This document shows positions 932 to 59,967 of a stretch of DNA of 64,000 nucleotides, piece after piece. Source of the DNA: Lingula anatina (lineage: Eukaryota > Animalia > Brachiopoda); assembly GCA_051362555.1 (NCBI GenBank), contig CM120640.1:30647967-30711966 (forward strand), written 5' to 3'. Positions within the stretch are counted from its first letter, which is position 1, and every line of letters begins with the position of its first letter. A program made the position numbers and the translations under genes. The notes under the pieces are model-generated. The model made no database searches and was not told where the DNA came from. It saw only the letters and a list, made by a program, of their open reading frames with translations.

Positions 932-2254
932 TAAAGTGAAAGGAAAAAGATTAGAGGGAGAAAAAGAGCAACAATTGAACATCCACATTTTCCCCCAAAG
1001 CACCCTTTATTTCAGTAAAATAAGGGAGAACATATATAATAATGGCATGCACACACTCAGAAACAAAAAATACTTTTTGACAAGCATCTAAAAGTCAAAA
1101 TTAATATATCTCATACTTAAAGAACAATACACTAACACTAACAGAACAAATAAAATTTCTAGTACAGCAATATGGTATCAACAGGCCTCTATTCAAACAA
1201 ATAAAAAATACATCAATAGAACAATTTTAATATCCAATTTGCTCCATTTTGAAATTATAAACATAGTGAAGGATTGAATTTGACAAACTGCACTGATATA
1301 ATTTTATTTTCCAATTTTGACTCTTTATTTCACAAGACATGATAACAGATTTACCATCATTTTTATATAATCAACCAACAAAATTGTTAAAATGCAGAAT
1401 TTGTCAAAAGAACACATTTATCAAATATGTTCAATAATGAGACGTTTATGTCTAAGAATTGAACCTGAGGAAAAAACACTTATACAAAAAAAAAAATAAT
1501 AATAAAAAAAAATAATGTTGTAAAAATTATAAAAATAAAGCTGATTTTCAAACTCAGTAAGTTTGTAAGTTTTGTAAATTTGGAATCATATCAACTCCAC
1601 TTGCTACACTGACTGAGCTGTATCATTTCCCCTCACATTTTAAAGTAATTAATATATTCTTTATGTGGTATATGGACTGTGATCTCTGATGACTGGTTGT
1701 CTGCTACCCCATTGGGATGAGTGGGTCACTGGGGCTGGCCATGCCCTGTTTTAGGTTAAGCGTGTTTTTTGGTTTGTTGTAGTCTTCAAAAAAGACAAGA
1801 ACTTTAGACTAATGAATAAAAAAAGAAAATTTCCAGTTATTGAAGCTATTTACTCCATTCTGTGCCACAGAGCTGTCATATGCTAAGTCTGGCATGCTGA
1901 TGGCCACAACCTTTTCTCCATGGAAAGCCAGTTCCTGCAGGTGCCCCAGTCTGAATTCACTCCTCCCCATTCAAATGCAGCTAGGGCCTTGCCCATACTG
2001 AAATAACAGCAACAACTATTTCAATATGCAAGGGAATTGTTTGTTATCATTACCAAAAGATTAATATTTGGACATATATTAAATATTAAATAAGTCTTTT
2101 AAAAATTGTTGCAATGATTATACCTTATATGCCTTTAAGAAAAAACAGTTTGATAATGAATAACTCATTTTCTAAGATGCATTTGATATCATCTAAGATG
2201 ACTTAACAATTTTTTCTTAAAATTCTTTGCAAGAGAGAGAGAGAGAAATCTTAC

Positions 2255-2342
2255 CTTCTTCTTTGCAGAAATAGGAACACAACAATAACTGCCTCTAATA
2301 GGATGACCCCAAGTATAATGGGGACCACAATGGCAGCTGTTT
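2255..2342 (-). CDS. Isolated transmembrane-coding exon (single-pass membrane protein type)
   Basis: atttcag acceptor, gtaag donor; 88 bp phase1-phase2 exon reading xTAAIVVPIILGVILLEAVIVVFLFLQRR(R/S): long hydrophobic stretch plus basic stop-transfer. Confidence 0.6.
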
Positions 2343-2557
2343 CTGAAATAACATATTTACTGGGAATGTATCAAATCAAGAAGGGAAATAATTCATTGAA
2401 GCAGCAACAGGGACTTATTTACAGGGACTAGAACAACCAAGACTGACATAAGATGAATTTAATCTTAGATGCAAAAATGTTAAAAGAAACTTACTACGAG
2501 ATATGATAATCAACAAAATGAAATTTTAAAGCAAAATACAGTTTTTCAAATTTGACC

Positions 2558-4118
2558 TCAAAAAGGATCTTGATTAAAGATTATGTAGTCTACTATCAAC
2601 TTATGTGAACTTGCATCAGCTCCAGTGAAAGCTGAAGGCTCCTTTTCACAGTATTCTCCATAATACTGTGAAATTTGATCAAATTTATTCAAATACAGAG
2701 TGACAAAATTTTTGGCTTTAAATAAAATAAAAACAAAAACTCAACACCATTTCAGATGTAGGCAAGCCATGCTGCATTTTTCTTTAATTATATCAATTCA
2801 TAAACATGGGTAGATTTCACAAGATAAACAGCCAGTATACAACAGCATACCCTGGTTTTCCTCAACTGCACAAACTCCAGGATTGCATTTTTGATTTGCA
2901 AAATCATCAGCCGTAGCCAGCAATTTCAAAGGGGGGTTCTTTTTCTGAAAAAGTGGACCTTTTACCATATAATCCCCATGTACATGTACCTAGGTCAAAT
3001 TTTACACAGAGTGGACCTTTTTCCAGCAAAAAGGGGGGTTCTTTTGAACCCCCCCTGGCTACAGGCCTGTTTATCTTCATATTAAAATCTTCATGTGTAT
3101 AATAAAATAAAATGCAATCAAATGGAATACGCTTAAATACCACATATATGAGAAAAGCTAATACCTTCACCCAGACATCTGGGCTGCATACAACACCTGG
3201 GCATTGCTCTCTGACATAACGTAAATTTCCACATTTCCACAATTCACTTGCTGGAAATAAAAATCAAGTCTTACAATCGTGCAGGTTACATTTGAAGTGA
3301 TTTAGCACACTTTTATTGTTAATGGTAGTAAAAATTGACAAATGAAAATATTTGCTCAGAAAGTATGACTAATTCCATTTTAAAACAAAGATATGGGAAG
3401 GCATGGTGATGGTCAGCTTGCATTAAAACAAAGCTCTTTTGTGAGTGATAATCCATTCAATTTTTAAGAATTTGGGCAATTTCTTATCCCCTAATGCCTT
3501 TTCATGACTTATCAAATGCTTATTAGGGTGGGGTGTGGGTGGGGGGGAAGCTTACCTCAGGTGGCTTCTGTGTTTGTGAGTTCACAATCTGCAAAGTCCA
3601 TCAAAATTGGTAATTGGATGAGTGTCCTGTCTCAACAACCCTACGTAACACTCCAGGGACACTACATGTGTCAGGCATCAGATTGACAGTAACAAAGGCC
3701 ACACTGATTAGAGATTTTCCATACACCACTTCCTGATAGACCTTACTGTAAAAAGAAATCAGTGATTTTTATATTTTTACTTTCAAACAGAGCCTATTTC
3801 AGTTATGTTGCATTGATTGCATTGAAGACAATTGCAGTTCATTCTTTTGTAATTTAATAAAGAAACACTTAATGAAATCAAGAATGTAATTCATCCTCTC
3901 ACCTTGCAAATGATGCCCTCCTATTCCTAAAGGAGAGTACAGGAGGTAAAGTCAAAGTAGTGATGTTTGTGACAGGGGGTGGGGTCTCCAGAGCATATCC
4001 CTGCAGATTAAATATATAGCCGTTTAAACTTTCCACTATAAAAAAACATCTTCTGATGGGAGGATTGCCTCATTATCCACATTGGTCACATTAAGTGGCT
4101 TTGTTGCTCAGCAGGTAT
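2558..4118 (-). pseudogene. Degraded Ulp1/peptidase C48-like domain in four exons (4118-3903, 3745-3556, 3250-3165, 2665-2558)
   Basis: AG/GT-bounded exons giving ..ESLNGYI.. (cf. DEVINFY), ..*WTLQIVN.. (cf. HWxL), WKCGNLRYVREQCPGVVCSPDVWVK (Q-x5-C spacing as in the Ulp1 oxyanion Gln/catalytic Cys) spliced in phase to YYGEYCEKEPSAFTGADASSHKLIVDYII (cf. YAEY..F...D....R); internal stop and a phase break present. Confidence 0.55.
2908..3069. mobile_element. Degenerate short MITE with (ca)gccgtagccag/ctggctacaggcctg ends
   Basis: Imperfect terminal inverted repeats and G/C runs like those of the 54812 family; no clear TSD. Confidence 0.35.
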
Positions 4119-4827
4119 CTGAAAATATTTTAATACATCATTTAATAAAATAGACAGACAGATAGATAGAATTAAATTAATAACACAGTATCATAATGAT
4201 GCTATGATAGATATTCTATGTTAAATTTTTGGTTTAATAGTTTATTTAATATACCAAATTTTACTCAGACTAAATTAACATGAAACACATACACATACAC
4301 ACACACACAAACACAAAAGACACAAATTATGTGTTCTTTATTTTCTTTAACTGAGGTGAGAAAGCAATCGGTAGGGGGTGTAACTTCATCCCTGCACAAG
4401 ATTTTGTCACCAATGTGGCAAAGTTGACCACAAGTCTTAGGACTATAATCCTGTGCTGTCATTTTTTTATGGAGTTATGAACCCCTAATAACAGATTTCC
4501 ATTCAACAAAGGCATCATTTTGCTTTGTTAATGATTAAATCTGAACTAAGGCTTTTAAGAAAAATTGCTGGCAGGGTTTTGGAATATTAAATGGTGTCAT
4601 TAAATTTGTGTTAAAACAGTGTTTGTGCATGCTCAGGTAAAAGAGAAATGTGACATGACGTGTGTAAATGCTAATTAATTTTGTCATGGAACACTGAAGA
4701 TATATTTATTATCCAAAATGATGTATGTTTTCAATAAATAAGGAGTTTTTGGCAAATGTTTAGTAATATAGTATCCTTAAAAAAGACAAAGTTTCATAAT
4801 TTTATAATCCAAACTCAGTTTCGGCAC

Positions 4828-4994
4828 CTAGTTTTTGTGCATCTCCACACTCCAGCCAATGTTTCTTCCTCACCAGCCATAATACACATCTCCATACTCC
4901 AGCCCATGTTTCTTCCTCTGATCGAGTCACCAGCCATAATACACATTCCTTTGGCATTATGTCAACCATGAATCAGGCTGAAGTGGCAATCCCT
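4828..4994 (-). pseudogene. Exon remnant, possibly PHD-finger-like
   Basis: ttgtag acceptor; after frameshift correction reads EEET-WLECG-xCTK; contains an internal ~55-bp duplication; weak. Confidence 0.25.
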
Positions 4995-5079
4995 CTACAA
5001 ATATATAAAGAGAGAAAATGAAAATGTAATTAATATAGGCTTGCACATTCACTTAAATAAATGAATGATTAAAATATAG

Positions 5080-5785
5080 GGCAATGCCTAAACCATATCA
5101 AAAACAAAAAAATGGGCACCACCTCCAGTATTGCACTTGACAAGGTCTACAAAATGCAATAAAACAGAGATCTCTGGCATTTACCATTCCAGATTTAGAG
5201 CGAGTTTTCAGTTTCGGTATCTAATGGCGGCTTCTCCCGTGAAAATGCACCGATTGACCCCAAACTCTCAAAGATGAAAGGAGACCCAATGGTAACCCCT
5301 CACTAAAATAGGAGAGCTTAGGGCTGCATAGTTTCCAAAAATTAGCACAAACAAATATTTTTTTACAGAAAATTCCCATTTTTAGAAAATTTTGGCTTGT
5401 TTGACCTTGAAAAAACAGTCAAAAGTCAAATCCAAGGACATATTTAGAATCTCCACATGTGACTTTCGGTCAGACTTCTGTAGTAATTTTTCCCATAATT
5501 CCTTTGGTTTGGGAGATATTTAGCATTGAATTTTCAAAAATTTTGACAAGGGTGCATTTCAACAAGCGTCACGCCCAGGCCAGTGCACTGACGGAGACAA
5601 AAAAACCAGGGTGTTTAAGTTGAGATTATATGTGACCTAAATCCAAGAGATGGGGACACAGGTCCTTGCGGTCTAGGAGGAGAAGCGGTAACGGCGATTT
5701 GTTTCCGGCGCCCGACTGCGGAGCCGGCGGAGCTGTACGAGACGGGTTGGGACTAAAACCATGAGTACCGCCAGCGTACACGCTT
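5080..5785 (-). mobile_element. HINE family A, copy 2
   Basis: Colinear homology to ~250-930, ending in a truncated gtaccgccagcg hairpin. Confidence 0.55.
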
Positions 5786-6564
5786 AATAAGATTCATATT
5801 AAGAAAATGCCCATCCTCATAAATGCAGAATATTAAATATAAACCAAGCTAAACATTGGACTTTACTTTATATAGATTCCTGATTAAGTAATATAAGCCA
5901 GTTGATGGCACTGATTGAAATTTTAAATGAAATATGATGTTACCCTTTTCTGCATTCTTCATTGAGCTCACGGCAGCCACCTTTTATTAAATAATAAAGC
6001 CCACCAGAATGGACTATTCTGGCAATCAAAGTTCTGAAGCTTATATAAATGCCAAGAATATTGTCAAGGGATAACAAATCATACGAGATCCATACTATAC
6101 TTTACAATAAATACATTGTAAACAACTCAGAAATGTAATAAATTCTATTATACCACCAAAACAGAAGTTATCATAATTATGTGTTAATTAAGTTGAACTT
6201 ACTTTGGGTCTTTATATTCATTGCCAAAATCTCAAATGCCTGTGAAATGAAAAAAAAAAAAAAAAAAAAAAAAAAAACTTACAATTTCAACCTGACAGTG
6301 ATAATATAAACTTTTTTAGTCAATGATGTATGATTTCATCATTAACTTTACAAATTTTGCATTTATATTATTTTGTTAGTCAGAAAAATTAACTCACTTT
6401 TTGTTTAATAAACTTTGCTCCAAAGTAACCAGCTTTTTTTTTTTTTTTTTTTTTTTTTGTGAACAGTATCCCTTAATAAAGTTTGCATGCCTTTGAAGTT
6501 TAGGTATGTCTATGTTTTGTTGAGGTTACAAACTATTGTCTGAACCGTGAAGCAATTTAGCATC

Positions 6565-6750
6565 TTAAACTGCATTCCCACAGATTTTAGATTGATCTAT
6601 CCCCATAGGAAGTCTCACTAGATAACTGTCAGCTTAGCCAGCTGAAACGTCTGTCCGGCCTACTAAAAGCTGACAGCAATTGATCATGAACCCCCAGGGA
6701 GTTAGGTCAATCCAGATAGATCAATCTACATCTTTGGGAATGCAGTCTTA
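6565..6750. mobile_element. PIF/Harbinger-like MITE
   Basis: TIRs actgcattcccacagattttagattgatctat / atagatcaatctacatctttgggaatgcagt with TA(A)-type flanks; relatives at ~39083-39317, ~39955-40168 and a fragment at ~19130-19165. Confidence 0.55.
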
Positions 6751-6986
6751 GAAAAACTGTAATTAAAACTTAAATGCCTTTACATTTTTCACCTACGTTT
6801 CCTTTTCTTCTTCACTTGAACTATCCACAAAATACTAAATTCTAGTGGTTTTACAATTGGAACATGGTAGAAAAACCATAATTTTTTAAATTTCCTTACG
6901 TTTTGCAATCTTTGAGAGTCACGTTCATCCTTAGTGCCGGACAGGCAATTATAATCCTCTACAATCTGAAAAACAAAATTAATAAT

Positions 6987-6990
<4 letters not shown>

Positions 6991-7043
<53 letters not shown>
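6991..7043. repeat. (TA)n microsatellite
   Basis: Direct observation. Confidence 0.95.
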
Positions 7044-7045
<2 letters not shown>

Positions 7046-7344
7046 TTGATATATAAATTCTTTTATGTAATTATTTGTGTATTAATTTTTTGAGATGTAC
7101 AGACACAGATGTCACTACAATCATGTAGTTGTCACTTGCGTCTTTCGTCACCATTCACTTTCAGTGATAACACCATAAGTGGAAAAACTCTTTAACTTTT
7201 CTCTTAAAACTTTTGAACTCTCATGTTTCTGAGGTCTATGCTAGTTACATATCCCTAATATATGTGTTACTTGTTGTGCACAATTAAAACTTGGTGTTGA
7301 TTTTGCTGTTAGGCCTAATTCATTATTGCATCTAATGTTGTGTA

Positions 7345-7582
7345 TCATTTAATGTTACATCTGGTCAACACCATTATACAGCTCAGAGACATAGACAATA
7401 ACAAAACCAACAGTGAAAAAACTAGGTACATAGGATGATATCATGGACTGAACACAACAGTAATGAGGAAGTACAAAATAATCTAAAAATGAAAAGATAA
7501 TTGTTGAACACCACAAGAAAACAAAATTACCTCATTTTGGAGATATCATAAGGAAAAATAATTTGCAGCTGTTGTTGTTAAA
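7345..7582 (+). mobile_element. RTE-clade LINE ORF2 C-terminal fragment
   Basis: Degraded translation LYSSET*TITK..KKL..ISWTEH..NEEV....KR*LLNTTRK...FG.IIRKNNLQLLLL matches the RTE/BovB ORF2 tail pattern. Confidence 0.55.
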
Positions 7583-7584
7583 AC

Positions 7585-8860
7585 CTGCTTTTTCAATAGG
7601 AATTAGCCATCCACAGACAGGTAGAGAATGGAAAGGGTACTCTGGAAAAAGAGCAATATAATTGAAAAAAAACTGAAAATAACACTGAAAACACTGGCAA
7701 ATTCCATGACTTAAAATAGTTCAACATTAATAATTTTGTCAAATCTAGTCCAATGTTTCTGATATTTGTACAAATTAAGCTTAACAACAATAAAAATCTT
7801 GTTTTTTTTTTTTTTAAGTGTAATTTTTTTTTTTTGAAATTGATAATCAGAAGAGTGAGAATTAACCAGATTTAGTTTCTAAATTGCAATGTATTATTTA
7901 CTCTCAAAGAAAACAGCAAACGTGATGATTTGGGGTTGTTTGAGTAAGAGGTGGCAAATTACCTATAAGTTCTATCTGGAAAACAATATAAACCCATACA
8001 AAACTTCTCCTTACTACCAATGGCAGATGCAGATTACTGCTTACAATGGGTTTCTGGAATGGGTTGTTGTTACCACAATATTTGACAAATCTTGCCACAT
8101 ATCATGTATTGTAATCATGGATAAGAGATAGTACTGCTCTTGATGCTGTCTTTTACTGCCAGCTTTTTCATGTTCAGGGTACTCTGGAAAAAGAATAATA
8201 TAAATAAAAAAACTGAAAATTACATTGAAAAGACTGGCAAATTCAATGACTTAAAATAGTTAAATGTTTATAATTTTGTAAAATCTAGTCCAATATTACT
8301 GAAATTTGTACAAATGATGCTGAACAACAATAAAAATCTGTGATAAGCTGATCAGTTGACTGTGTCTAATTAAAAGTATTTTTTCAGACAATATATTTGA
8401 ACAAACTGAAAATTACATTGAAGATTGGCAATAAAAATCTGTGATAAGCTGATCAGTTGTCTGTCTTTTTTTAAGCATCAGTTTTTTTTTTGGAAAGAGA
8501 GAAGAGTGAGAATTAACCAAAACTAATATTTCAATATTGAACTGTATTATTTACTCTCAAAGAAAACTGCAAACATGATGATTTGAGGTTGTTTGTGTAA
8601 GAGGTTGCAAATTACTTATAAGTATTATATGGAAAACAATATATACCCATACAAGACTTCTACTTATTACCAATGCCAGATGCAGATTATGGGTTTCTGG
8701 AATGGGTTGCTGTTAGCACAATATTTGACTATGTCCTAAATCTTGCCACATATCATGTATTGTACACATGGATAAGACATAGTGCTGCTCTTGGTGCTGT
8801 CTTAAGCTTTCACTGCCTGCTTTTTCATGTTAAGGGTACTCTGGAAAAAGAATAATATAA
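7585..8860 (-). repeat. Exon-A + ~192-bp satellite module, tandem copies
   Basis: Exon-like block (ttccag..gtaat on minus strand; ~7961-8180 and ~8617-8840) alternating with satellite monomers; same module at 16-18 kb, 22 kb, 25 kb and 62 kb. Confidence 0.7.
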
Positions 8861-8863
8861 CTA

Positions 8864-11800
8864 AACAAGGCAGCAAAGCCGTCAAATGTACAGACAAAAA
8901 CAGAAAATAAAAATGCAGATAAACAGGTCATTTTGTCAATTTAGATGCAATAATAAACAAGGCAGCAAAGCTGTCAAATGTACAGACAAAAAACAGGAAA
9001 TAACTATGCACAAAATAGGCTACTGTCAATTCTGATGCAAAAATACATTATGTTAAACTGCAAATTCAACATAAAATTTTAATTATCCTCAAAAGGTAAT
9101 ACCAATGTAATTAAAATATGTGACAAGTTTACACTTTGAAAATGTATAACTTCCAGAAAAAGAAGTCAATTCAACTGCTTTTCCAACTCAGGCTGAATTT
9201 TAGTCCTGTATTTCTTTTTTGAAAGTTTGGCAATCATAAGTAAAATGGTTTTCCCATAATGGTCATCATGGCAGCAGCACCCAAAATTGTGTTTTCTTCT
9301 ATTCTGATGCCATATTACAAAATGGTTAACAGCATAATGACCATCAATTTTTAATAATAAAATATACGTATCATGGATTTTCAGAAAATGTGACTAGCAT
9401 GGGTCTTCAAGCCCGTGGAACTTCAAAGTCACACCTTGAAAATGCCAATATGTGAAAAATTAAATTTTCACAAAAAACTGTTTAACTGGCAGTAAGAATT
9501 ACCAAACAGACTGTATTTCCTACTGAAGCTGTATTTTAGTCCCATGTTTCTTTCCTGTAAGTTTGAGAACAGTAAATGACATGGTTTTTCTTAAATGGTC
9601 ATCATGGGAGCAGTGCCCAAAATAGTTTTTTTTTCAAATTTTGATGCAATATTACATAATGTTTAACAGCATAATGACCATCAATTTTAATGATAAAATA
9701 TTAGTATTATGGATATTCAGAAAATGTGCCTAGCAAAGGTCTTCAGGCCCATGGAACTTCAAAGTCACATCTTGAAAATGCCAAAATGTAAATGAGACAG
9801 CACTGTTCTGAAATGTTTTTTTTTTTTCATTTTTAACAATTTTTAACATAAAACAAAATTAACAGTTTTCTGCCGTTTTTATATGATCAACTAAGAAAAT
9901 TGATGAGATGGAAAAAATATCAACAGAGCAGTGTTAAATGTCCAATTTCTTCCATTCTGAGATTCTGAACATAGTGAATGATTGAATCTGACAAACTGCA
10001 ATGATATGGGTTTATTTCCATTTTTGAAACTTTATTACACAATACACGATAACAAGTTTACCCTCATTTTTACATAATCAACTAATAATGTGGTAAAGAT
10101 GCAGAAAATGCCAAACAAACACTTTTACGTATCTTATTAGTTCAATTATGAAACTGTTTACATGCCTAAGAATTGAATCTGAGGAAATGTGAAAAAACTG
10201 CATTTCTTTAAAATAATGGCCCGATTATGCTGATTTTTGAAGTCAACCTGCGTTTTAGCAGGAATGACCACTCCTGTAAGTTTAATGACAATTGGCCTAT
10301 CTGTTTTTCTTATATTGTGTTAACAGTGTTGCATATATGCTGAAAAGTGAAAAAAAAAAAGCATAACTTCTACAATAATGGCCCGATCATGCTGATTTTC
10401 GAACTTGACCTGCATTTTATGAATATTCGTCAGCTCTGTAAATATACAGCCAAAAAGTAAAACTTTCTTCCACTTATCGTGTTTACAATGAAAGTGCACG
10501 GCGCCAGCGACAGCGACAGTGATGGCAACGACGGCGACGACAGATGCAGGTGATGGCAATATGTACAGACACATCTGTACATATTAACTGTACTGTTTGA
10601 GAACAGTAAGTGACATGGTTTTTCTTAAATGGTCATCATGGGAGCAGTGCCCCAAATAGTTTTTTTTCAAATTTTGATGCAATATTACATAATGTTTAAC
10701 AGCATAATGACCATCAATTTTTAATAATAAAATATTAGTATCATGGACAAACAGAAAACATGACTAACAAAGGTTTTTAGGTCGATGGAACTTCAAAGTC
10801 ACACCTTAAAAATGCCAAAATGTAAACAAGACTCCACTGTTCTGAAATGGGTTTATTTCCATTTTTAACACTTTTTTAACATAAAATTAATAGGATACTG
10901 CCATTTTTTATATGATCAACTAAGAAAATTGATGAGATGTGAAAAATATCAATAGAACAGTGTTAAATGTCCAATTTCTTCCATTCTGAGATTCTGAACA
11001 TAGTGAATGATTGAATCTGACAAACTGCAATGATATGAGTTTATTTCCATTTTTGACACTTTATTACACAATACACGATAACAAGTTTACCATCACTTTT
11101 ACATAATCAACTAACAATGTTGTAAAGATGAAGGAAATGTCAAACAAACACTTTTACGTATCTTATTAGTTCAATAATGAGACTGTTAACATGCCTAAGA
11201 ACTGAATCTGTAGAAATGTGAAACAAGACAGCACTGTTCTGAAATGGGTTTTTTCCCATTTTTAACAATTTTTTTACACAAAACAAAATTAACAGTTTAC
11301 TGCCATTTTTATATGATCAACTAAGAAAATTGATGAGATGGGAAAAATATCAATAGAATAGTGTAAAATGTCCAATTTCTTCCATTCTGAGATTCTGAAC
11401 ATAATGAATTATTGAATATGACAAACTGCAATGATATGAGTTTATTTCCATTTTTGACACTTTATTACACAATACACGATAACAAGTTTACCATCATTTT
11501 TACATAATCAACTAACAATGTTGTAAAGATGCAGGAACTGTCAAACAAACACTTTTATGTATCTTATTAGTTAAATAATAAGACTGTTAACATGCCTAAG
11601 AACTGAATCTGAGGAAATGTGAAAAAACAGCATAACTTCTAAAATAATGGCCCGATTATGCTGATTTTCGAACTCAACCTGCGTTTTAGTAAGATTGACC
11701 ACTCCTGTGAGTTTAATGACAATTGAGTTTAATGACAATTTTCCTTAAAATGTGTTTACAGCGTTGCATATATGCTGAAAAGTGAAAAAAACAGCATAAC

Positions 11801-13838
11801 TTCTACTATAATGGCCCGATCATGCTGATTTTCGAACTTGACCTGCGTTTTATGAATATTCATCAGCTCTGTAAATATAAAAGCAAAAAATAAAACTGTG
11901 TTCCACTTATCATGTTTACAAGGAAAGTGCACGGCATCGGCATCGGCATCACCATCGGCGACGACGGCGACGACAGACGCAGGTGATGGCAATATGTACA
12001 GACACATCTGTGTCTGTACATAATAATGCTTATAATAGCACAGTCAATCAACACTGAATTTTAATCATGCACAACAGGTAACATGGTCAATAACAGGAGC
12101 AGATCCAGAGATATTTTCTGACAGTATTCCAAATTATCTTTGTTGATCCATCCTCCATTTTTGATAGTCTTCCAACAGAAAAAAATAGATACCCGTCAAT
12201 GTAAACTTTAAAATCTGACCGTCATCTGGAAGACCCAGAAGATGGTCTCAATCCGCTGCAATAAGATTACAGTTTCAGGACAATGAGAGTTCAAATTCTT
12301 ATAATGAAAATCCCAATAAGTTTCTTTCCTGTAAGTGTGAGAGGAATAAGTGACATGGTTTTCCTTTAATGGTCACTATGGAAGCAGCTACGGCAATAGG
12401 GTTTTCTTCAATTTTGATGCAATATTACACAATGCTTAACAGCATATCATGACCATCAATAATAATAATAAAATAAAAGTATTATGGATATTCAGAAAAT
12501 GTGACTAGCAAAAGTCTTCAAGCCCATGGAAGTTCAAAGTCACATCTTGAAAATCCCAAAATGTAAACAAGAGATAACAAACATTCTGAGATTCTGAACT
12601 TGGTGAATGATTTAATCTGACAAACTGCAATGATATGAGTTTATTTCCATTTCTGACACTTTATTACACAATACACAATAACAGGTTTACTGCCATTTTT
12701 ATATAATCAATTAACAATATTGTTAAAAAGGAGAAAATGTCAAAAGAACACTTTTAACATATCTAATTAGTCCTATAATGAGATTGTTAACATGACTAAG
12801 AATTAAATCTGAAGAAAAACCACTTATATACAATAAAGGCATAACTTCATCAAAACTTAACTGATCGAACTTATTTTCAAACTTGATCTGTATATTATTC
12901 AGACTGATCACTGCTGTGAGTTGCGAGACAATGGGCTGATCAATTATCCTTGAAATGTGTTATCAGTGTTGCATATATGCTGAAAAAAAAAGCACAACTC
13001 TTGTAATGGTTTGATCAAGCTGATTTTCAAACTCTACCTGTATTTTAGTAAGACTGATCACTCCTGTAGGTTTCAAGACAATAGGCCTATCAGTTTTCCT
13101 TGAAATGTGTTATCAGTGTTGTACATATGCTGAAAAAAGCAAAAAAAAAACAATATAACTTATTAAACAATGGCCCGATCATGTCGATTTTCAAACTTGC
13201 CCTTCGTATTATCAATGTTAATCAGTTCTGTAAGTTTCAAGCCAAAAGGTAAAATGGTTCTCCACTTCTTGTCTTATCAGTGTTGCATGGATGCTGAAAA
13301 AAGTGAAAAATAACAGCATAACTATGGAAAAAATCATGCTGATTTTCAAACTTGACCTGCGTATTATCAATATTCATCAGTTCTGTAAATTTCAAGCCAA
13401 AAGGTAAAATGGTTTTCCACTTATATCGTGTAATCAGTGTTGCACATATGCTGAAAAAAGTAAAAGAACAATATAACTTATTAAATAACGGTCCTATCAT
13501 GGTGATTTTTCGAATTTAACTTACGTATTATAAATATTCATCGGTTTAAGTTTCAAGCCCAAAGGTAAAACGGTTTTCCACTTATTGTGTTATCGGTGTT
13601 GCATATAGGCTGAAAGAATGAAAAAACTTAGATAAAAATAGCCCCATCATGCTGATTTTCAAACTTGACCTGGGTATTATGAATATTCATCAGTTCTGTG
13701 AGTTTCAAGCTAAAAGGTAAAACAGTGTGCCACTTATCATGTTATCAGTGAAAGCGCATGGCAACGACGGTGACGGCAACAGCAACAGCAGACACAGGTG
13801 ACGGTTACATGTACAGACACACCTGTGTCTGTACATAA
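8864..13838 (-). mobile_element. Composite/multimeric HINE family B (~5 kb) with internal tandem repeats
   Basis: 3' end (minus) gtctgtacat-ttgacggctttgctgcc-ttgttt at 8864-8896; 5' subTIR hairpin tgtacagacac..gtgtctgtaca repeated at ~10562 (shortened), ~11995 and ~13810, each beside an (acggcg)-type microsatellite; internal ~0.43-1.06 kb duplications and ~150-160 bp tandem units (12850-13750). Confidence 0.65.
12115..12320 (-). mobile_element. CR1/L2-type LINE APE endonuclease fragment
   Basis: Degraded IR(S)LNSH..LIA..ET.. and YIDGYLFFSVGRLSKMEDG (cf. IxGYxFFxxxRxxxxGGG). Confidence 0.35.
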
Positions 13839-13940
13839 AAATCTGAAATAAGCTTATCACTTCCCTGTTTCCAATTTAAGTGTAGTCAATTGATATCAGA
13901 AGAGTGAGAATTAATAAAAACAAATATTTCAAAATTGCAA

Positions 13941-14614: not shown

Positions 14615-14647
<33 letters not shown>

Positions 14648-14865: not shown

Positions 14866-15933
14866 TAGGTCAAAGGTCAATTTCAAGTTCAGAGTAAGGT
14901 TGCCAGTATGTGACTTCCTATACAAGTTCAATAGTAAATATGGGCCTAATTCTGCCAGTTTTGGAGATGTAAGGGACTAAAATGGGTGTATCTTTGCTAA
15001 TTTTGGAATTACAGTAATGTGCCATAAAATTTGTACAGAAGAAATTAATTGAAATGACAAAAAGATTGTTTTGCTTGAAATTCATGAAATGGTGGGTGCT
15101 GAGAAATTCCAATTTTCAAATTTCATGGAATTCTGTCATTTTTGACCCCAAGTTGTCTGTCCCTCACTAAGCCTAATGTTATCTTTTCCTGACATTCAAA
15201 ATTTATGGCATATTACTGTATTTCATATTTTATTTTCACAACACGTTGCACTTTTTGAAACAGCACAACTCGTAAACCGTATTGAAAACAAAAAAATGGG
15301 CACCACTTTAAGTGTTGGGCTTGACATGCTTCACAAAATGCAAAAGAATAAGAGGTCTCTAGCATTTACGGTTCCTGAATTAGAGAGAATTTTTAGTTTT
15401 GGCATCTTATGGCGGCTACTCCCAAGAATATGCACTGATTGACCCCAAACTCAGGAGGATGAAAAATAACCTTAAGGTTAACACCTGCCCATAATATTAT
15501 AGGCAAGGTCTGTGTAGTTTCTGAAAATCAGTAGCAATAAAAATTTTTTTGCAAAAAATTCATTTTTTTAGAAAATTTTGGCCATATGACCTTGAAATAA
15601 ATGTCAAAGGTCAAATCCAAGGGCATATTTGAAATCTCCACATATGACTTTCGGTCAATCATCTGTAGAATTTTTTTCCATAATTCCTTTGGTTTGGATA
15701 ACTAGCATTTAATTTTGCAAATTTTGGACAAGGGTGCATTGCAGCACCGACAAAGCCCAAAATTTACGTGGATCGAGTTGAGATTAAATGTGACCTTAAT
15801 CCAAGAGATGGGTACGCAGGCTCTTGAAGTCTAGGAGGAAAAATGGTAATGGTGACTTGGCGGCAAAGCCAGCGAAATATGAGTGTCAGGACTAAAACTA
15901 TGTGTATCGCCAGCGCCTACGCTGGTGGTACAA
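14866..15933 (-). mobile_element. HINE family A, copy 3
   Basis: Homologous to 1-930; hairpin cgccagcg-ccta-cgctggtggtac; satellite resumes right after it; left boundary approximate. Confidence 0.55.
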
Positions 15934-16118
15934 TGAAAATCTGAGATAAGGTTATCACTTCACTGTTTCTAATTTAAGTGTAGTTAATTGGCAATTGATA
16001 TCAGAAAAGTGAGAAATCACAAAAACAAATATTTCAATATTGCAATAAATCATTTTATCTCAAATGAAACATCAAATGTGATGACTTGTGTTTGTTTGTG
16101 TAGGAAGTGGCAAATTAC

Positions 16119-16405
16119 CTATTATTGTCATCTGGAAAACAATATATATCCATTCAAGACCTCTCCTTACTACCAATACCTGGTGCAGATTCCTCCTTAC
16201 AGTGGGTTTCTGGAATCAGGCTGTTAGCACAAACCATTTGACAATGTCCTAAATCTTGCCACATATCAGGTATTGTACACATGGATGAGACAGAACTGCT
16301 CTTGATGCTGTTTTTCACTGCCTGTTTTTTCTATAGGCATTAGCCATGACCAGACAGGTAGAGTCAGTCCACCAAGAAGCCTCCATGCTGCAAGGAAAGG
16401 GTTAC
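16119..16405 (-). pseudogene. Longest copy of exon A (Ulp1-like N-terminal part)
   Basis: tttttccag acceptor, gtaat donor; reads GNPFLAAWRLLGGLTLPVWSWLMPIEK...ICTRYW**GEVLNGYI (cf. Ulp1 WLxDEVINxY); several stops. Confidence 0.4.
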
Positions 16406-17523: not shown

Positions 17524-18019
17524 TTAAACGTTAATAATTTAGACAAATCTGGTCCAACGTTTGTGAAATTTGTATAAATGATGCTTAAGAACAATAAAAA
17601 TCTGAGATAAGCTAATGACTTCACTGTTTCTAATTTATTAAGTCTAGTTAATTGGCAATTGATATCAGAAGAGTGAGAATTAACAAAAACAAATATTTCA
17701 ATATTGCAATAAATCATTTCATCTCAAATGAAACATCAAATGTGATGACTTGTGTTTGTTTGTGTAGGAAGTGGCAAATTACCTATTACTGTCATCTGGA
17801 AAACAATATATACCCATTCAAGACTTCTCCTTACTACCAATACCAGATGCAGATTCCTCCTTACAGTGTGATCTGGAAACAGGCTGTTAACACACACCAT
17901 TTGACAATGTCCTGAATCTTGCCACAGGGATTCCTGGAAAAAGGAGACGGGGTGAATTAGTGAAGAGGCAAAGTTAAACATAATTTTTTAAAAGACAGAG
18001 GCCTGACAGGCACCAGCAG

Positions 18020-18560
18020 CAATGTAAGAAAACTACACAATAAAGCTGACAAATATACAGGCACCATACAGGAAACAAGGCAGTAAAGCTGACAAATGTT
18101 CAGAGGCAGAAAAGAGTGTACCAAATAATGTTTTGGCCAATTCTGATGCACTATCACATAATGCTTTAAAACAGCATAATCACTCCTACCCTCTTACATT
18201 ATGAACTACAGGTAACATGGACACTGAAAAAAACTAGCAAGTAATTTAGTTTCATCAGCAATAAAAGCCACTGAAAATGCTAATGTGTGAAAAATAAAAT
18301 ATTCAAAAAAAAAAAAAAAAAGGAAAAAAAAACAGAACAATTACCATAAATGTAAATTGATCATGCTGGTTTTTGAAAACATTCTTTGCCAAACAAACCT
18401 ACACAGTAAATTTAATGTTAAACACTTATGGGGCAAATGTCACCAAAAATGGACAAAAAAGGAACAGCATAATTACTGTAAATGATTTCTCATCGTGCCA
18501 ATTTCCCAAAGCAACCTGCCTCTTTACCAAACAAAGCCACTCAAAAAATATAATGTAAAA
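18020..18560 (-). mobile_element. HINE family D, truncated copy
   Basis: Homologous to 59335-59720 (aaagctgacaaatatacag...). Confidence 0.45.
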
Positions 18561-18579
18561 CAAAAGATTTTTTGACAGT

Positions 18580-19130: not shown

Positions 19131-20111
19131 ATGGATCGATCTAAATCTGTGGGAACCCAGTCTAAGCCTTCAAATCCTATAGAACATTAAGGGAACACTT
19201 AATATTGTTTCTTAGTGCCCAAGAAATAAGCGAAATGCAAATTTATAACATACAAGCCAAACTTCCCTTTCCACTATTTTTCCTCTGTCATGATGAGAAA
19301 CATTTTACTTTTAAGTTCTAATCTCAAACAAGCTACTTCTATTCATCAATGTCAAAGCTTATGAATATGTAAACATTTGAGGTGGGATAGGCCAATAAAA
19401 TGATATATAAAACTCATAAATAAAGTAACTACCATGTGTTTAACAAAGAGCACCTGCTATTAATATTGAACTGTGGGCTAGCTGTGGTCCATATAGCGAC
19501 TAGGTTAGGTCACACAACTCTGCCTTCTGGGAACGTTTTGAAGTCAAAATGGCGACTAGCACAAATAATGATGTTCTGATATTTTAAGAATTTATATACA
19601 ATTTAAAACATTCTCAACGATAGGAAATGCTTATAGGTATGTGTAACAAACTCATAAATGATTGACCAAACTAACACTTTAATATAAAAGACAAGAAACT
19701 GACAGTCCACCTGCGTCAGTTCTGAAAATTATTAAACTATGGTGCACTGCCAAGTGTCCCACCTTATATGGCAGACATCTGTGTTTTGGTAATTTAAATG
19801 TGATTGCTGAGACAGGCACAATTCTTGATCTAAATAAAATGATCAGAACTCTGCCAAATCTGCTTGAATTTTTGTGAAATTTACACACAAATTGCCTAAC
19901 ACTTTTAAAAATCTGTAATATAATATGTCAGCTGCCTAATACTAGTTGACTTACATTTTGTGATGAGAAGTGAGAAAAAATAAAAAATTACTTATTAAAA
20001 TTCTAAATTATGACAAATAATATTCACACCCCGAGAAAATGAAACAAAAAAGGTGATAATTGGTGTTTGTTTCTCAACAATACAAGATCAACTGTTAATT
20101 TTGTGTACCAC

Positions 20112-21444
20112 CTGCAAGCAGTCCAGTTACTGTCATGGCATTGGGTCATCCAAGGGAAGTAATGACCACTGCTCCACTTTAGGTCCAATACATTTCATCC
20201 CAAACTGACCACATCAAGCTGGTCACTAGAGAGACATGTCACAATGTATAACTGTCAAACTGTGCGTGAACTAGAATAAAGATAAACGTTAATTAAATAA
20301 AACATTCAAAACAATCATCCACTGATGATCAGAAGCAAATGAATATCCAATATTTCAGCCCACCAAGTTACATGTCCTTCAGTCACTATATATAAATAAT
20401 AAAATGCACATGAAAGATATTTTAAGATAAGTATTCATTTTGTATAACAATGTTTTGTGCATATAAGATGAAATGGTTTAATCTAAACAATCTTTATTGT
20501 ATGAAAGGTGTGGACCAAAAAAATACTTGAGACTAAAAGTACAATGCACATTACAATTTAATTAAAATAAATGAAAAAAAAACAGTGGAATAAAAAGTAA
20601 TCCACGTTTTTCAAATCACAATAAAAACCACATGAGTCCAAAAACTGTGATAATTGGTGTTTGTTTTCTGTACAGAGGAAAAACAGAAAACCAATAACCT
20701 ATTCTTACATCTAACACAAAACCAGACGTTCATTTTATGTACTACCTGCAAAAAGTCCAGTTACCTGTTTACCATGGCTGTCATGTCTCTGGCTCTTCAC
20801 AACCCATTCATCCTGAAACTTGTTGTGTCTTCCACAACTGGGTGAGATGAAAGGATATTCCTGCAGCTGCCATTTCCTGTCTATTTCACACATCGGAGTT
20901 GTGGTGATTGAAATGTGATAAGTTAAAAATGACCTTGTCTTTTGGAGGCTACTGGACACCATTGTGACTGCTGAAACTATCACAATCTCAGACTGATCAC
21001 AATTAAATCAACAGAACTCTGTCAAATCTGCTTGGATTATTTGTGGAATTTGCAAACAAACTAACTAAACACAATAACTTTAGAAATCTGGGATAACTAT
21101 ACCAGGTGGCTGTGCCTTATTTTGTGAGGAGTAAGATGGGAGAAGTGCAAAAAAAATTATTAAATTTTAAAAAAACACAAAATATGATCACTGTTTTGTT
21201 GATCTATAGGGGAAGGATAAGAGACAAATTTTGTGTTACATAGCTTGTAAAACAAAACCAAGTGTTTATTTTGTGTATTACCTGCAATCAGTTCTGTTCC
21301 CATCTTGGAAATGGGTGACCTGAGGGAAGTCATGTCACTACTCCACTTTAGGTCCAATAAATTTCATCCCAAACTGACCACATCAAGCAGGCCACTACGG
21401 AGACACATGACACTGTACAACAACTGTCAAACTGTGTGTGTGAA
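20112..21444 (-). pseudogene. Cluster of degraded Ulp1-like exons (20270-20112, 20876-20746, 21444-21282)
   Basis: AG/GT-bounded; 20270 and 21444 are paralogous; ends converge on aactggact..tgcag (xWTLQ, cf. HWxL; degenerate in the 21282 copy); the 20876 exon reads KWQLQEYPFISP (cf. DYDLILIP). Confidence 0.35.
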
Positions 21445-21806
21445 CTAGAAAAAAAAAGATAAACATTCATTAAAAATATTAAACAGTGGCCAACAGTGAT
21501 TCACAGCTTTCTGTTTAGAATATGTAGTGTATTTTGCTTTATTATATTCATTAACTTGGAAAATGTAACATAAACACATTTAAATATTAATTATCAAGAA
21601 ACAATACACTTAACTTCACAGAGTTGGGAAAGCATGCTGCGATCCTGAATTGGCGGTTAAACAGAAACGACATGCAATCGACACTTTTGTCCAAGCTCTC
21701 CGTTTAAAATATACATTGTATTTTGCTTCATATTCATAAAGTTTGGAAAATGTAACATTAAACACAAAAAAATATATTATCAGGGAAGAGTACACTTAAC
21801 TTTACA

Positions 21807-22905
21807 TTGTACACATGGATAAAACATGGTGCTGCGTTTGGTGCTGTCTTTCACTGCCTGCTTTTTCATGGTAAGGGCACTCTGAAAAAAGAACAATATA
21901 ACTGAAAAAAATGATAATTACACTAAAAACACTGGTAAATTCCATGACTTAAAATAGTTAAATGTTAATAATTTTGACCAATCTTGTCCAATGTTTCTGA
22001 AATCTGTACAAATGATGCTTAACAACAATAAAAATCTGTGATAATCTTATCAGTTGTCTATGTCTTTTTTTAAGCATCAAATTTATTGGAAATTGATAAC
22101 GAGAAGAGTGAGAATTCACCAAAAGAAATATTTCAATATTGCAATGTATTATTTACTCTCAAAGAAAACAGCAAATGTGATGATTTGAGTTTGTTTGTGT
22201 AGGAGGTAGCAAAATACCTATAACTGTTAACTGGAAAACAATGTTTACCCATACAAGACTTCTTACTATCAATGCCAGATGCAGATTACTCCTTACAATG
22301 GGTTTCCGGAATGGGTTGCTGTTAGCACAATATTTGACAATGTCCTAAATCTTGCTACATATCATGTATTGTACACATGAATAAGATTTAGTGCTGCTCT
22401 TGGTGCTGTCTTTCACTGCCTGCTTTTTCATGGTAAGGGTACTCTAGAAAAAGAACAATATAACTGAAAAAAAAAACTGAAAATTACATTGAAAAGACTG
22501 GCGAATCCCATGACTTAAAATAGTTAAATGTTAATAATTTTGTCAAATCTATTCCAATATTTCTGAAATTTTTACAAATGATGCTAAACAACAATTAAAA
22601 TCTGTGATAAGCTGATCACTTGTCTGTGTCTATGAAAAGTATTTTCTTCGGATGATATATTTGAGAAAACTGAAAATTACACTGAAAACGCTGGCAAATT
22701 CCATGACTTAAAATAGTTAAACGTTAATAATTTTGACAAAATGTGTCCAATATTTCTGAAATTTGTTTAAATGATGCTTAACAACAACAAAAATCTGTGA
22801 TAAGCTGATCAGATGACTGTGTCTAATGAAAAGTATGTTCTTCGGATGATATATTTGAGAAAACTGAAAATTACACTGAAAACACTGGCAAATTCCATGT
22901 CTTAA
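21807..22905 (-). repeat. Exon-A + 192-bp satellite module
   Basis: Exon-A copy ~22217-22443 flanked by satellite monomers. Confidence 0.7.
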
Positions 22906-24938: not shown

Positions 24939-24939
24939 T

Positions 24940-25768: not shown

Positions 25769-25769
25769 A

Positions 25770-27746
25770 ACACTGGTACTTCTAGCTGCTCTCATCTTCT
25801 CCATGTACTGGCATTTGTCGCACATCTTGATCTGCAAAATGCAATAAAATGCATATCTATTACAAGGAATGATGTAGTAGCTCATGCTGGCCACAGTGCA
25901 CTAATTAATCTAGTTTGACAGCTTGTTAGAGAAGTTTGCACAAAACAACAAGTGAATAATACTATTCAACAAACCAATCAGAAACAAAATCTGTCACTTT
26001 ATGTCAGTTATGGACAGATGATAGATGGACAGTTTAATACTAAGTTAAATTTATACAAAACTGGTGATTAAAAAAATTGTTTATTTGCCTTAGTGTTTTT
26101 TCACCCAACACACCACTTTATAGGTGTTACGATTTTCTTGTTACAAATTCATCTCATACTTGCCCTTTCTCTCTCTTTCCAAACAGGTATACAAAAAGGT
26201 ATACAACAGTGTTTCCAAAAAACTACAATACATGTACTTTCATACAGTAATGACTACAATTGCTGCATACCCATTTGTTGATGCATGTAACCATGCTTCT
26301 CCAATAGAAGAAGCTCTCAATTTGCCCCAGGGTCTTCTTCTGGCCAAATTGGCTTCCCATAGGGGAATTATGACATTCGCGAAATTTTTTCTTTTTCTCA
26401 TCATTAAATACTACTAGCCTCCTTACACCACTCTTGATATAACACATCTCTGACCCTGAAAATATAGAAAAACAACTCAATTGTACTATTTTAAAACAAG
26501 ATACATATGTAACAGACGGACTCTCTGGTTGTGTAAAATGACTTTATTGCTATAACTAAAATTTTCACCCTGTAATAAAGGTGACATATAATTAGATAAA
26601 ATGACATACAACAAATAACTTATAATTCTATAGTTTACCTCTATGATAAGGAAATAATAAATTCGATATAGATAACTACGGTTTATAAAGGCTATAACGG
26701 CTTACCCTGATCTTATTCAAGGGCGTTTAGAAAGAGTGCTGGATATACCAATACGGCTTGGTCTGAAAACTAAAGAGTAGAAAACGATGTAATACAGTAT
26801 AGTATAGTATAGTGGAGTTGGATATGCAAAAGACAAGATAAAATATAACTAAAATTAACTAGATGACATCCAACTTCCCATATAGAAACAGACAGAAGAA
26901 CAGCAACTTCAGCACTATTTGAAAATACGGCGCCAATGCCTTTTATAATGAGAAGTCACATGACAAAGACGCGGGAAGACAGAACAAAGGGACATAGACA
27001 AAGAAACAGACAAAGGAACAATTAGAGGGCGTCAGAGTCACAGCAAGTCACAAGACAAGACGAGTGACGAGTGCATATTTACACATAGTTACACATATAA
27101 TAGCAGATTTCTGGCCTATAAAAATACCAACTAGAAAAGGTGCACATCTGTCAATACCAGTACTTTGTGGATAAACAGAAAACAGAACTATGGGATATAT
27201 GAACAACCAAGCTGTTATGATAAACTTTAATAGGTAATATTTGTTTCTGTTGCATGTTAAGAAATGAAAATTGTCTTCATTGGACACCAAATGCAGAGTG
27301 AAAATTAAACAAAAGGCACCAGTTACAAAAAGCAAAAGGCTCTCCATATTTAACTACCTACATTTTCTCTTTTCTAATTTCTTGTGCATGATTATATAAC
27401 AACATATACTTTTTTCTATTTCTCACAGATTTTTCAAAATAATTTCATACCACAGGCTTAAATTGTTGAATGAATGTTAGGGAATTAGGTCATGTTTTTT
27501 ACCATGTTTACCAAAATAACAGAACAGGTACAGATTCCAAAAGAAAGTAACATTTGAATATTAAACCAAAATTCATACAAATGGAAAGAACATCATCCTC
27601 TTACCTTCACATACTACATGTAGTATATAGTTCTTAGCCATTCTCCTAACTGATGCCTTGTGGTTGGCATTCCAACCAGCATCTCCTTTCCCTTCCTGCA
27701 GATACTGAAACACATCATCTAGGTTGACCAAATGGCGCTCTGCCAT
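25770..27746 (-). pseudogene. Intron-containing Ginger/GIN1-type integrase, N-terminal + zinc-binding domain (exons 27746-27605, 26455-26271, 25831-~25770), truncated before the DDE core
   Basis: Phase-consistent splicing gives MAERHLVNLDDVFQYLQEGKGDAGWNANHKASVRRMAKNYILHVVCE|GSEMCYIKSGVRRLVVFNDEKKKKFRECHNSPMGSQFGQKKTLGQIESFFYWRSMVTCINKW|IKMCDKCQYMEKMRAARS: YL..G......K..VRR.A..Y, CH....G.(H>Q)FG..KT...I...FYW..M...I..WI..CDKCQ. Confidence 0.8.
26508..27093 (-). mobile_element. Solo LTR (Gypsy-like), 586 bp
   Basis: tgtaac...gttaca termini, 4-bp TSD cata on both sides; TATA-like tataaaaagg and downstream aataaa on minus strand. Confidence 0.7.
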
Positions 27747-27768
27747 GACTGAAAGTAGTATAAGTATA

Positions 27769-59918: not shown

Positions 59919-59967
<49 letters not shown>

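What the first reader, a model, noticed from the sequence alone, without database searches (positions are those of the whole stretch)
1800..27750. Candidate giant, intron-rich Ginger-type element coupling an integrase to multiple Ulp1-like protease modules and a membrane-anchor exon
Seen: all recognisable exons from 27.7 kb down to 1.8 kb lie on the minus strand with canonical AG/GT ends. Their order is integrase N-terminus/zinc finger, repeated Ulp1-like exons (25, 22, 21-20, 17, 16, 8 kb), a possible PHD exon (4.9 kb), a near-complete four-exon Ulp1 domain (4.1-2.6 kb), then a TM exon (2.3 kb). Established: Ginger1 DNA transposons encode Gypsy-like integrases, can carry introns and can carry Ulp1, OTU or PHD domains. 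Inference: this is a decayed, >25-kb, multi-protease version (element or domesticated gene family) that plain ORF calling cannot see. The repeated protease array and possible membrane anchor are not a typical described architecture.
Basis: partly seen in the sequence, partly recalled or inferred. Interest (0 to 1): 0.8.

Follow-up and report, generated by a model that had tools for sequence, protein, structure and literature searches.

The report
Broken integrase gene beside receptor remnant
This stretch holds the first three exons of a transposon-type integrase gene, a short DNA block repeated many times nearby, and the tail of a membrane-protein gene that RNA reads show spliced; these are likely unrelated broken pieces, not one giant multi-protease element.

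Summary
The integrase part is real; the giant multi-Ulp1 element is not supported. Three minus-strand exons (27.7, 26.4, 25.8 kb) give a stop-free 130-codon frame with a YPYY-like motif and an integrase zinc finger (Pfam E=1.3e-7). Their two introns match a Ginger1-type reference locus in position and phase. Exon 3 runs into a 193-bp repeat before its expected donor; no DDE core, TIR pair or Ginger1-type target site was found. The 'repeated Ulp1 exons' are copies of one DNA block, 82-98% alike, also present at 62.8 kb; 7 of 7 share a stop in the frame with the Ulp1-like motif, so they were likely copied after death. No piece hits Peptidase_C48 or PHD (0 of 23); the one local Ulp1 signal fades when repeat-derived bases are shuffled. 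RNA reads (49, in 3 of 4 runs) join the supposed last Ulp1 exon (2.6 kb) to the membrane exon, whose partner looks like an EGF end; most reads differ from this copy, whose donor is AT. No RNA was laid on 7.6-30 kb, so a link to the integrase is untested.

The parts
27605..27748 (-). GIN/Ginger1-type exon 1: ATG at 27746, YPYY-like region, phase-1 donor
   Evidence: AG/GT ends; 27.5 bits against control maxima 23.0-24.2; weak tblastn to integrase N-termini, E 0.02-0.98
26706..26762 (-). 57-nt exon-like piece with strong splice sites; carries an in-frame stop if included; role unknown
   Evidence: sequence; no RNA laid here
26271..26455 (-). Exon 2: integrase H2C2 zinc finger, first His kept, second His replaced by Gln; phase 1 in, phase 0 out
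   Evidence: Pfam Integrase_H2C2 E=1.3e-7; alignment A3; same intron positions as locus L001
25769..25831 (-). Exon 3 start: CxxC of the zinc finger, then runs into the 193-bp repeat after 21 codons, 3 codons short of the donor seen in L001
25063..25292 (-).
22221..22442 (-). Repeated block, copy; a partial copy follows at 21880-21806
21281..21443 (-). Duplicated exon-like piece, pair with 20271-20111 (131 of 158 bases alike); both share stops in all three frames; identity unresolved
20762..21120 (-). Diverged 193-bp repeat (21120-20984) followed by a diverged copy of the repeated block (20884-20762); source of the only local Ulp1+PHD score
   Evidence: (0 of 1000 shuffles)
20111..20271 (-). 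Second copy of the 21.4-kb piece; followed by another diverged 193-bp repeat (19937-19803)
17786..17933 (-). Repeated block, partial copy
16124..16405 (-). Repeated block, longest copy; carries the Ulp1-like motif W..GEVLNGY with two stops
7966..8840 (-). Two more copies of the repeated block (8840-8619 and 8183-7966)
4829..4994 (-).
   Evidence: trace RNA depth in 1 of 4 runs
3556..4118 (-). Two decayed exons (4118-3903, 3745-3556); Ulp1 not supported, SEA-like by eye only
   Evidence: depth about 1.4 in 1 of 4 runs, none in the 3263-3469 intron bin
3165..3250 (-). Cys-bearing exon whose end is in frame with the 2.6-kb exon; likely first part of a membrane-proximal EGF-like module
   Evidence: frame; EGF reading is inference from recalled cysteine spacing, no Pfam or PDB support
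2605..2665 (-). Exon starting YYGEYCE, spliced to the membrane exon in RNA; donor is AT in this copy
   Evidence: 49 joint reads in 3 of 4 runs; both read differences silent in this frame
2255..2342 (-). Single membrane-spanning exon followed by basic residues
1640..1997 (-). Cytoplasmic-tail and last-exon region of the membrane-protein gene
   Evidence: canonical joint 1997-2255 in 6 reads (2 of 4 runs); depth 5-17 at 1607-1813 in all 4 runs
61628..64000 (-). Sister block outside the finding: 193-bp arrays with a copy of the repeated block at 62881-62671

Best explanation
The region is likely a mosaic of three broken things: the 5' end of a Ginger1/GIN-type integrase gene, a dead DNA block that was likely copied in tandem, and a likely defective duplicate of the 3' end of an expressed single-pass membrane-protein gene. 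Shown: the three integrase exons, their intron positions, the cut of exon 3 at a 193-bp repeat, the shared stop in the repeated block, the same-strand layout of the repeats, and the RNA joints from the 2.6-kb exon to the membrane exon and on to the tail. Inferred: a deletion or rearrangement at the 193-bp repeat removed the catalytic DDE exons; unequal crossing-over or slippage spread the repeat-plus-block module (34 of 35 repeat hits on one strand, a sister array at 61.6-64 kb); the membrane gene is a type I protein with a membrane-proximal EGF-like module, and most reads come from an intact copy elsewhere while this copy is only weakly transcribed. Nothing here would transpose or make a protease.
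For: Integrase: Pfam E=1.3e-7; 81.4 bits against controls of at most 24.2; introns at the same place and phase as L001, and intron 2 also as L006. No catalytic core: best 24.7 bits against 24.5 control, 7 of 25 permuted profiles score as high, while reference loci score 272-439 with the same method. No bracketing inverted repeat among the pairs listed and no CCGG/CCGT/ACGG+TGT end before 43.9 kb. Repeats: 82-98% alike, TAA shared in 7 of 7 printed copies and a stop just before it in 6 of 7, 34 of 35 hits on the minus strand. Membrane gene: joint 2341-2604 in 13+18+18 reads in 3 of 4 runs; all reads differ from the window at 2630 (85 of 85) and nearly all at 2657 (60 of 61), both silent in the frame that continues into the membrane helix; window-like reads at 2309 are 4 of 36, 0 of 18 and 2 of 44, and the canonical 1997-2255 joint has 4 and 2 reads in the same two runs. 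The 4.9-2.3-kb exon chain has 10-11 stops in each frame.
Against: No RNA was laid on 7.6-30 kb, so a transcript joining integrase and membrane exons is untested. CpG is depleted over the whole of 1-30 kb (observed/expected 0.32 against 0.77 at 30-59 kb) and all pieces share one strand, which fits one old transcription unit as well as a mosaic. The integrase frame is stop-free over 130 codons (weak: 761 of 2000 copies stay open at 5% random change). A Ulp1+PHD profile scored 44.4 at 21.3-19.7 kb with 0 of 100 permuted profiles as high (1 of 25 over the whole region), and one block copy gave p=0.005 among 20 regions. The EGF/SEA reading has no Pfam or PDB hit either. The abundant reads do not cover the 3.2-kb exon, so their upstream exon is unseen; allele and paralogue cannot be told apart without DNA from the same animals. 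My Ulp1 profile comes from 13 proteins, those named all from fish, and could miss a distant family.
Confidence: 0.68

Rival explanations
1. One decayed Ginger1 element: integrase exons followed by a single Ulp1(+PHD) region whose pieces were amplified after death; the membrane exons belong to a neighbouring or host gene.
For: Known Ginger1 order is integrase then Ulp1/PHD (PMC2836005; loci L003, L004). The block holds a W..GEVLNGY motif close to the WLEGEIVNSY of P0040; local Ulp1+PHD score 44.4, 0 of 100; a weak match to integrase C-terminal columns lies right behind the sister array at 61190-61023 (0 of 100 local permutations with one profile, 24 of 100 with the other).
Against: Motif score below the permuted-profile maximum; the 44.4 score falls to a mean of 34.0 (maximum 40.3, 20 shuffles) when two stretches that are diverged 193-bp repeats are shuffled, against a null of 30.3 +/- 3.7; no DDE, TIR or target site; 61.2-kb match not above the reversed-window control (5.0 against 5.2 bits).
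Confidence: 0.2
2. One reading: a single >25-kb element or domesticated gene with several Ulp1 modules and a membrane anchor.
For: All pieces on one strand within one CpG-poor block; trace exon-restricted RNA depth on the 4.9-3.2-kb exons in 1 of 4 runs; by eye the 4.1/3.7/3.2-kb exons carry Ulp1-like words in the right order.
Against: Copies share stops, so they were never separate working proteases; 2.2-5.1 kb scores below null (79 of 100); 0 of 23 Pfam pieces and no SENP/Ulp1 chain in 4 PDB searches; the 2.6-kb exon ends at 2605 in RNA; block and 4.1-kb exon are not alike in DNA (972 and 533 of 1000 shuffles as high).
Confidence: 0.05
3. The three integrase-like exons are a host gene module (YPYY + zinc finger without DDE), as in domesticated proteins, rather than a transposon remnant.
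For: Stop-free spliced frame; an upstream exon-like piece at 29.8 kb; relatives with H2C2 domains and no or only weak rve: P0003 (Saccoglossus), P0005, P0007, P0011 (molluscs); ZBTB11 uses such a finger (PMC5384227).
Against: Second zinc-binding His is Gln, and each of the four HHCC residues is needed in ZBTB11 (PMC5384227 passages); exon 3 has no good donor and runs into a repeat; no close protein found (a weak negative).
Confidence: 0.07

Closest known systems
Ginger1 DNA transposons (Bao et al. 2010, PMC2836005; parts 1-3 of 5 read) and the Ginger1-type loci L001, L003, L004, L006 fetched here
   Same: YPYY-like region plus H2C2 finger split by introns at the same positions and phases.
   Different: Ginger1 are 2.6-7 kb, with 40-270-bp TIRs, CCGG/CCGT target sites, DDE, GPY/F and one OTU or Ulp1 domain; none of these was found here.
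Domesticated GIN1/GIN2 and Imagin genes (PMC2836005; PMC3424704 passages; PMC12863088 abstract)
   Same: Multi-exon, Ginger1-derived integrase N-terminus without terminal repeats.
   Different: They keep the integrase core; this copy stops after the zinc finger, has lost one His, and expression is untested.
Proteins with integrase-like HHCC fingers and no catalytic core (ZBTB11, PMC5384227 passages; P0003, P0005, P0007)
   Same: Zinc-finger module without DDE.
   Different: Those are long intact proteins, most with C2H2 fingers; here the module ends in a repeat.
SEA-EGF-TM membrane mucin-like proteins (recalled, no call)
   Same: Last cysteine preceded by a Y-x-G-E motif, 12 residues after the previous cysteine, then a short linker, a membrane helix and basic residues.
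   Different: Resemblance from memory only; no SEA or EGF profile hit; the upstream exons are broken in this copy.

Membership tests
Ginger1 DNA transposon | YPYY motif and H2C2 zinc finger | tested here: met
   degenerate, second His is Gln
Ginger1 DNA transposon | Intron positions shared with Ginger1-type loci | tested here: met
   introns 1 and 2 match L001, intron 2 also L006
Ginger1 DNA transposon | DDE catalytic core | tested here: not met
   positive controls score 272-439
Ginger1 DNA transposon | GPY/F region | tested here: not met
   none in 1.5-27.8 kb; only a weak candidate outside, at 61.2 kb
Ginger1 DNA transposon | 40-270-bp TIRs with TGT..ACA ends and CCGG/CCGT target-site duplication | tested here: not met
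   old ends may have decayed, and one end could lie before base 1 of the window
Ginger1 DNA transposon | C-terminal Ulp1 or OTU domain, with or without PHD | tested here: inconclusive
   Pfam negative; local signal depends on repeat-derived bases; motif likeness only
Ginger1 DNA transposon | Several dispersed copies in the genome | not testable with these tools
   no genome held
Ulp1/SENP protease (Peptidase_C48) | Profile match with intact His-Asp-Cys triad | tested here: not met
   0 of 23 pieces; no SENP chain in PDB searches; 79 of 100 null scores as high at 2.2-5.1 kb
Domesticated GIN-type gene | Spliced, expressed, conserved open frame | tested here: inconclusive
   frame open for 130 codons; no RNA laid on these exons; conservation not testable
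SEA-EGF-TM membrane protein | Membrane helix spliced behind a cysteine-bearing juxtamembrane exon | tested here: met
SEA-EGF-TM membrane protein | SEA and six-cysteine EGF domains by profile | tested here: inconclusive
   no hit on single broken exons; spliced form was not searched

The most novel reading that the evidence does not exclude
The expressed relative whose upstream exon was not seen carries a transposon-derived Ulp1 protease or integrase zinc finger in front of the membrane exon, that is, a Ginger1-born domain tethered to a membrane, and this locus is a decayed family member or makes such a fusion by skipping its dead exons.
Probability: 0.06. Interest if true: 0.65.

Novelty: not a real feature. 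Interest (0 to 1): 0.17.

Why it matters
As read here it matters little: a transposon-gene remnant, local repeat expansion and a defective duplicate are ordinary in AT-rich invertebrate genomes. The small gain is a Ginger1/GIN-type gene with the conserved introns in this animal (a brachiopod according to earlier AI notes, not checked by me). It is also a caution: decayed AT-rich exons can be read by eye as Ulp1, PHD, SEA or EGF, and one convincing-looking Ulp1 word here came from a satellite-like repeat. If the novel case held, a membrane-tethered transposon protease or zinc finger would be a new route of transposon domestication.

Tried and rejected
Whole-genome search: no genome held. Word-indexed homologue searches with the zinc-finger exon (2 candidates, none scored) and the 2.6-kb exon (1 candidate, none scored): weak negatives. 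No RNA holder listed for 24.8-29.9 kb: no evidence either way. tblastn of 44 integrase/Ginger1-type proteins: nothing below E 0.17 outside the zinc-finger exon in 1-31 kb. Metagenome scan with the zinc-finger exon: 100 pattern matches, none confirmed; viral contigs with alignment A4: 9 matches, none confirmed. PDB searches of four pieces gave only chance hits (CLIC E 0.22, TBP E 0.058). ESM Atlas gave no answer. Earlier-findings look-ups by place, sequence and words were empty in 6 of 7. Ideas dropped: the block as a decayed DDE exon (33-81 of 100 permutations as high); homology of the 3.7-kb exon to the 21.4/20.2-kb pair (27 and 762 of 1000); TSP1, chitin-binding and TRPM readings seen by eye, with no Pfam hit. 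Literature searches: Ginger1+Ulp1+transposon gave 1 paper; Ulp1+transposase+PHD+intron+Mutator gave 2; Lingula anatina+Ginger+transposon gave 4, 3 listed, none read; SEA+EGF+transmembrane mucin+invertebrate gave 2, none read. I saw no description of a multi-Ulp1, membrane-anchored Ginger in the texts I read; supplements of PMC2836005 (alignments) were not opened and may bear on the intron comparison.
Full report
Setting. The window is AT-rich animal DNA; no genome is held. Earlier AI notes on the same genome call it the brachiopod Lingula (not checked by me). CpG observed/expected is 0.32 at 1-30 kb, 0.77 at 30-59 kb and 0.23 at 59-64 kb, which I read, from general knowledge of invertebrate gene-body methylation, as gene-derived sequence in the two low blocks.

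Integrase exons are real. The 26.4-kb exon hits Pfam Integrase_H2C2 (E=1.3e-7, 32.1 bits; 1 of 14 pieces) and finds 26 proteins in the 1.84-billion library. A frameshift-tolerant profile of integrase N-termini scores 81.4 bits there and 27.5 at the 27.7-kb exon, against maxima of 23.0-24.2 on reversed and complemented window. Exons 27748-27605, 26455-26271 and 25831 onward splice in frame without a stop for 130 codons. Intron 1 (phase 1, two residues before the E-x-x-Y word) and intron 2 (phase 0, after Trp) sit where they do in the Ginger1-type locus L001; intron 2 also matches L006. Conserved introns are reported for Ginger1-5_HM and the Gin genes (PMC2836005, parts 1-3 of 5 read; PMC3424704, passages). 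The second zinc-binding His is Gln. Exon 3 runs into a 193-bp repeat at 25768 after 21 codons; in L001 the donor comes after 24. The open frame is weak evidence of selection: 761 of 2000 copies stay open at 5% random substitution.

The rest of a Ginger1 is missing. Profiles were built from proteins found with P0009 (319 hits, 120 listed, 8 with Peptidase_C48). The DDE-to-GPY/F profile finds nothing above control by tblastn, hmmsearch (4.0 against 4.5 bits), frameshift-tolerant alignment (24.7 against 24.5) or spliced alignment (7 of 25 permuted profiles as high), while reference loci score 272-439. No inverted-repeat pair brackets the region, and no CCGG/CCGT/ACGG+TGT end occurs before 43.9 kb.

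The 'Ulp1 array' is a DNA repeat. The pieces at 25.3, 22.4, 21.9, 17.9, 16.4, 8.8 and 8.2 kb are copies of one block, with another at 62.9 kb and a part at 61.6 kb; copies are 82-98% alike. Most follow 193-bp repeats, and 34 of 35 hits of that repeat are on the minus strand, which points to local tandem copying rather than transposition. But the TAA inside it is in 7 of 7 printed copies and a stop before it in 6 of 7, so the block was copied when already dead, and the word scores 21.2 bits where permuted profiles reach 23.3 on average. The 21.4/20.2-kb pair is a separate duplication (131 of 158 bases alike, flanks 47-58%) with shared stops in all three frames. Against my reading: a spliced Ulp1+PHD alignment scored 44.4 over 19.6-23 kb, with 0 of 100 permuted profiles as high (1 of 25 over 1.5-27.8 kb); 2 of 20 regions had p below 0.05 and 1 of 14. 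However, 21120-20984 and 19937-19803 are diverged 193-bp repeats and 20884-20762 is a diverged block copy; shuffling the two repeat-like stretches lowers the score to a mean of 34.0 (maximum 40.3 in 20 runs), inside the null range (30.3 +/- 3.7, maximum 40.8). Real Ulp1 regions in L003 and L004 score 165 and 283. Ulp1 ancestry is therefore possible but not shown.

The 4.9-1.7-kb end. None of 23 read-through pieces hit Peptidase_C48, PHD, SEA or EGF, four PDB searches gave chance hits only, and 2.2-5.1 kb scores 24.3 with 79 of 100 permuted Ulp1 profiles as high. RNA reads from 4 runs in 3 studies were laid on 1400-7600 at 90% likeness. The 2.6-kb exon is joined to the membrane exon in 13, 18 and 18 reads (3 of 4 runs; the fourth has no depth there). 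The window's donor at that joint is AT. All 85 reads at 2630 and 60 of 61 at 2657 differ from the window, and both changes are silent in the frame that continues into the membrane helix. At 2309 only 4 of 36, 0 of 18 and 2 of 44 reads are window-like; the canonical joint 1997-2255 has 4 and 2 reads in those same two runs. So most reads come from an intact relative (paralogue or other allele; 435 further difference rows and 8 joints were not shown by the tool), and this copy is weakly transcribed on the minus strand. The 4.9-3.2-kb exons have depth about 1 in one run only, with none in the 3263-3469 intron bin; no joint among them was listed. Their chain has 10-11 stops in each frame. The 3.2-kb exon ends in frame with the 2.6-kb exon and gives a cysteine 12 residues before the last one, followed by a linker, a helix (hydropathy 3.06) and basic residues; I read this as a membrane-proximal EGF-like module of a type I protein, from recalled spacing in membrane mucins, without a profile hit. 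The words beyond base 2605 that complete the Ulp1 likeness of the 2.6-kb exon are intron in the spliced form. The identity of the 4.1- and 3.7-kb exons stays open (SEA-like or Ulp1-like by eye).

How it most likely came about (inferred). A Ginger1/GIN-type gene lost everything after its zinc finger at a 193-bp repeat; a repeat-plus-block module was copied in tandem; further non-autonomous elements inserted; and the 3' end of a membrane-protein gene lies downstream as a defective copy. A weak match to integrase C-terminal columns at 61190-61023 (0 of 100 and 24 of 100 with two profiles; not above the window-wide control) hints that the sister array at 59-64 kb may come from the same family.

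What is left open. No RNA was laid on 7.6-30 kb, the exon upstream of 2665 in the abundant transcript was not seen, no genome-wide copy search was possible, and the Ulp1 profile is narrow (13 proteins). Verdict: observation partly confirmed; the giant multi-protease, membrane-anchored element is not supported; interest 0.17. Papers seen: PMC2836005 (parts 1-3 of 5), PMC3424704 and PMC5384227 (passages), PMC12863088 (abstract and outline); others as search listings only.

Noticed in passing
window 59000-64000 (-): Sister block of the finding: 193-bp arrays, one copy of the repeated block, a 74% match of 59332-59877 to 18030-18565, CpG-poor, and a weak integrase C-terminal candidate exon at 61190-61023.
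   Followed up: partly
window 29959-34487 (-): Gypsy pol relic (RT_RNaseH_2 hit) at 33655-34487; its zinc-finger piece recurs in four ~190-bp copies spaced 1.0-1.5 kb inside a 60-bp tandem array at 30196-33509.
   Followed up: no
window 35915-37582: Tc1-type element: 37-bp inverted arms starting TA-CAGGG, HTH_Tnp_Tc3_2 and DDE_3 hits in separate frames.
   Followed up: no
window 28728-29098: MITE-like element with 49-bp arms (96%) and a 5-bp target duplication AAGTC, next to a 66-bp array of 14 copies at 97% (27767-28681) that abuts the first integrase exon.
   Followed up: partly
window 187-935, 5089-5784, 15214-15938: Family of ~750-bp elements with a palindromic end; strongly covered by RNA reads from other copies. 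Helentron-like by recall only.
   Followed up: no
window 9200-13840 and 7095-7335 (opposite strand): Second repeat family with a palindromic start and 155-164-bp and 401-bp tandem cores.
   Followed up: no
window 29846-29766 (-): Exon-like piece with AG/GT ends near the edge of the CpG-poor block; out of frame with the integrase exons, so 5' untranslated or from another gene.
   Followed up: partly
window 6965-6793 and 6240-6203 (-): Two exon-like pieces with good splice sites; the first is open for 58 codons, no Pfam hit, RNA depth below 1.
   Followed up: partly
window 46816-47059: Perfect 122-bp tandem duplication.
   Followed up: no
L003 2568-4039; L004 2224-4773: Ginger1-type loci whose Ulp1+PHD region is split into 7-8 exons, more introns than the 0-4 listed for whole Ginger1 elements in PMC2836005 Table 1.
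   Followed up: no
P0005, P0007, P0011: Mollusc proteins of 1348-1473 residues with three integrase H2C2 stretches and C-terminal zinc fingers, with no or only a weak rve hit: a likely domesticated family.
   Followed up: no
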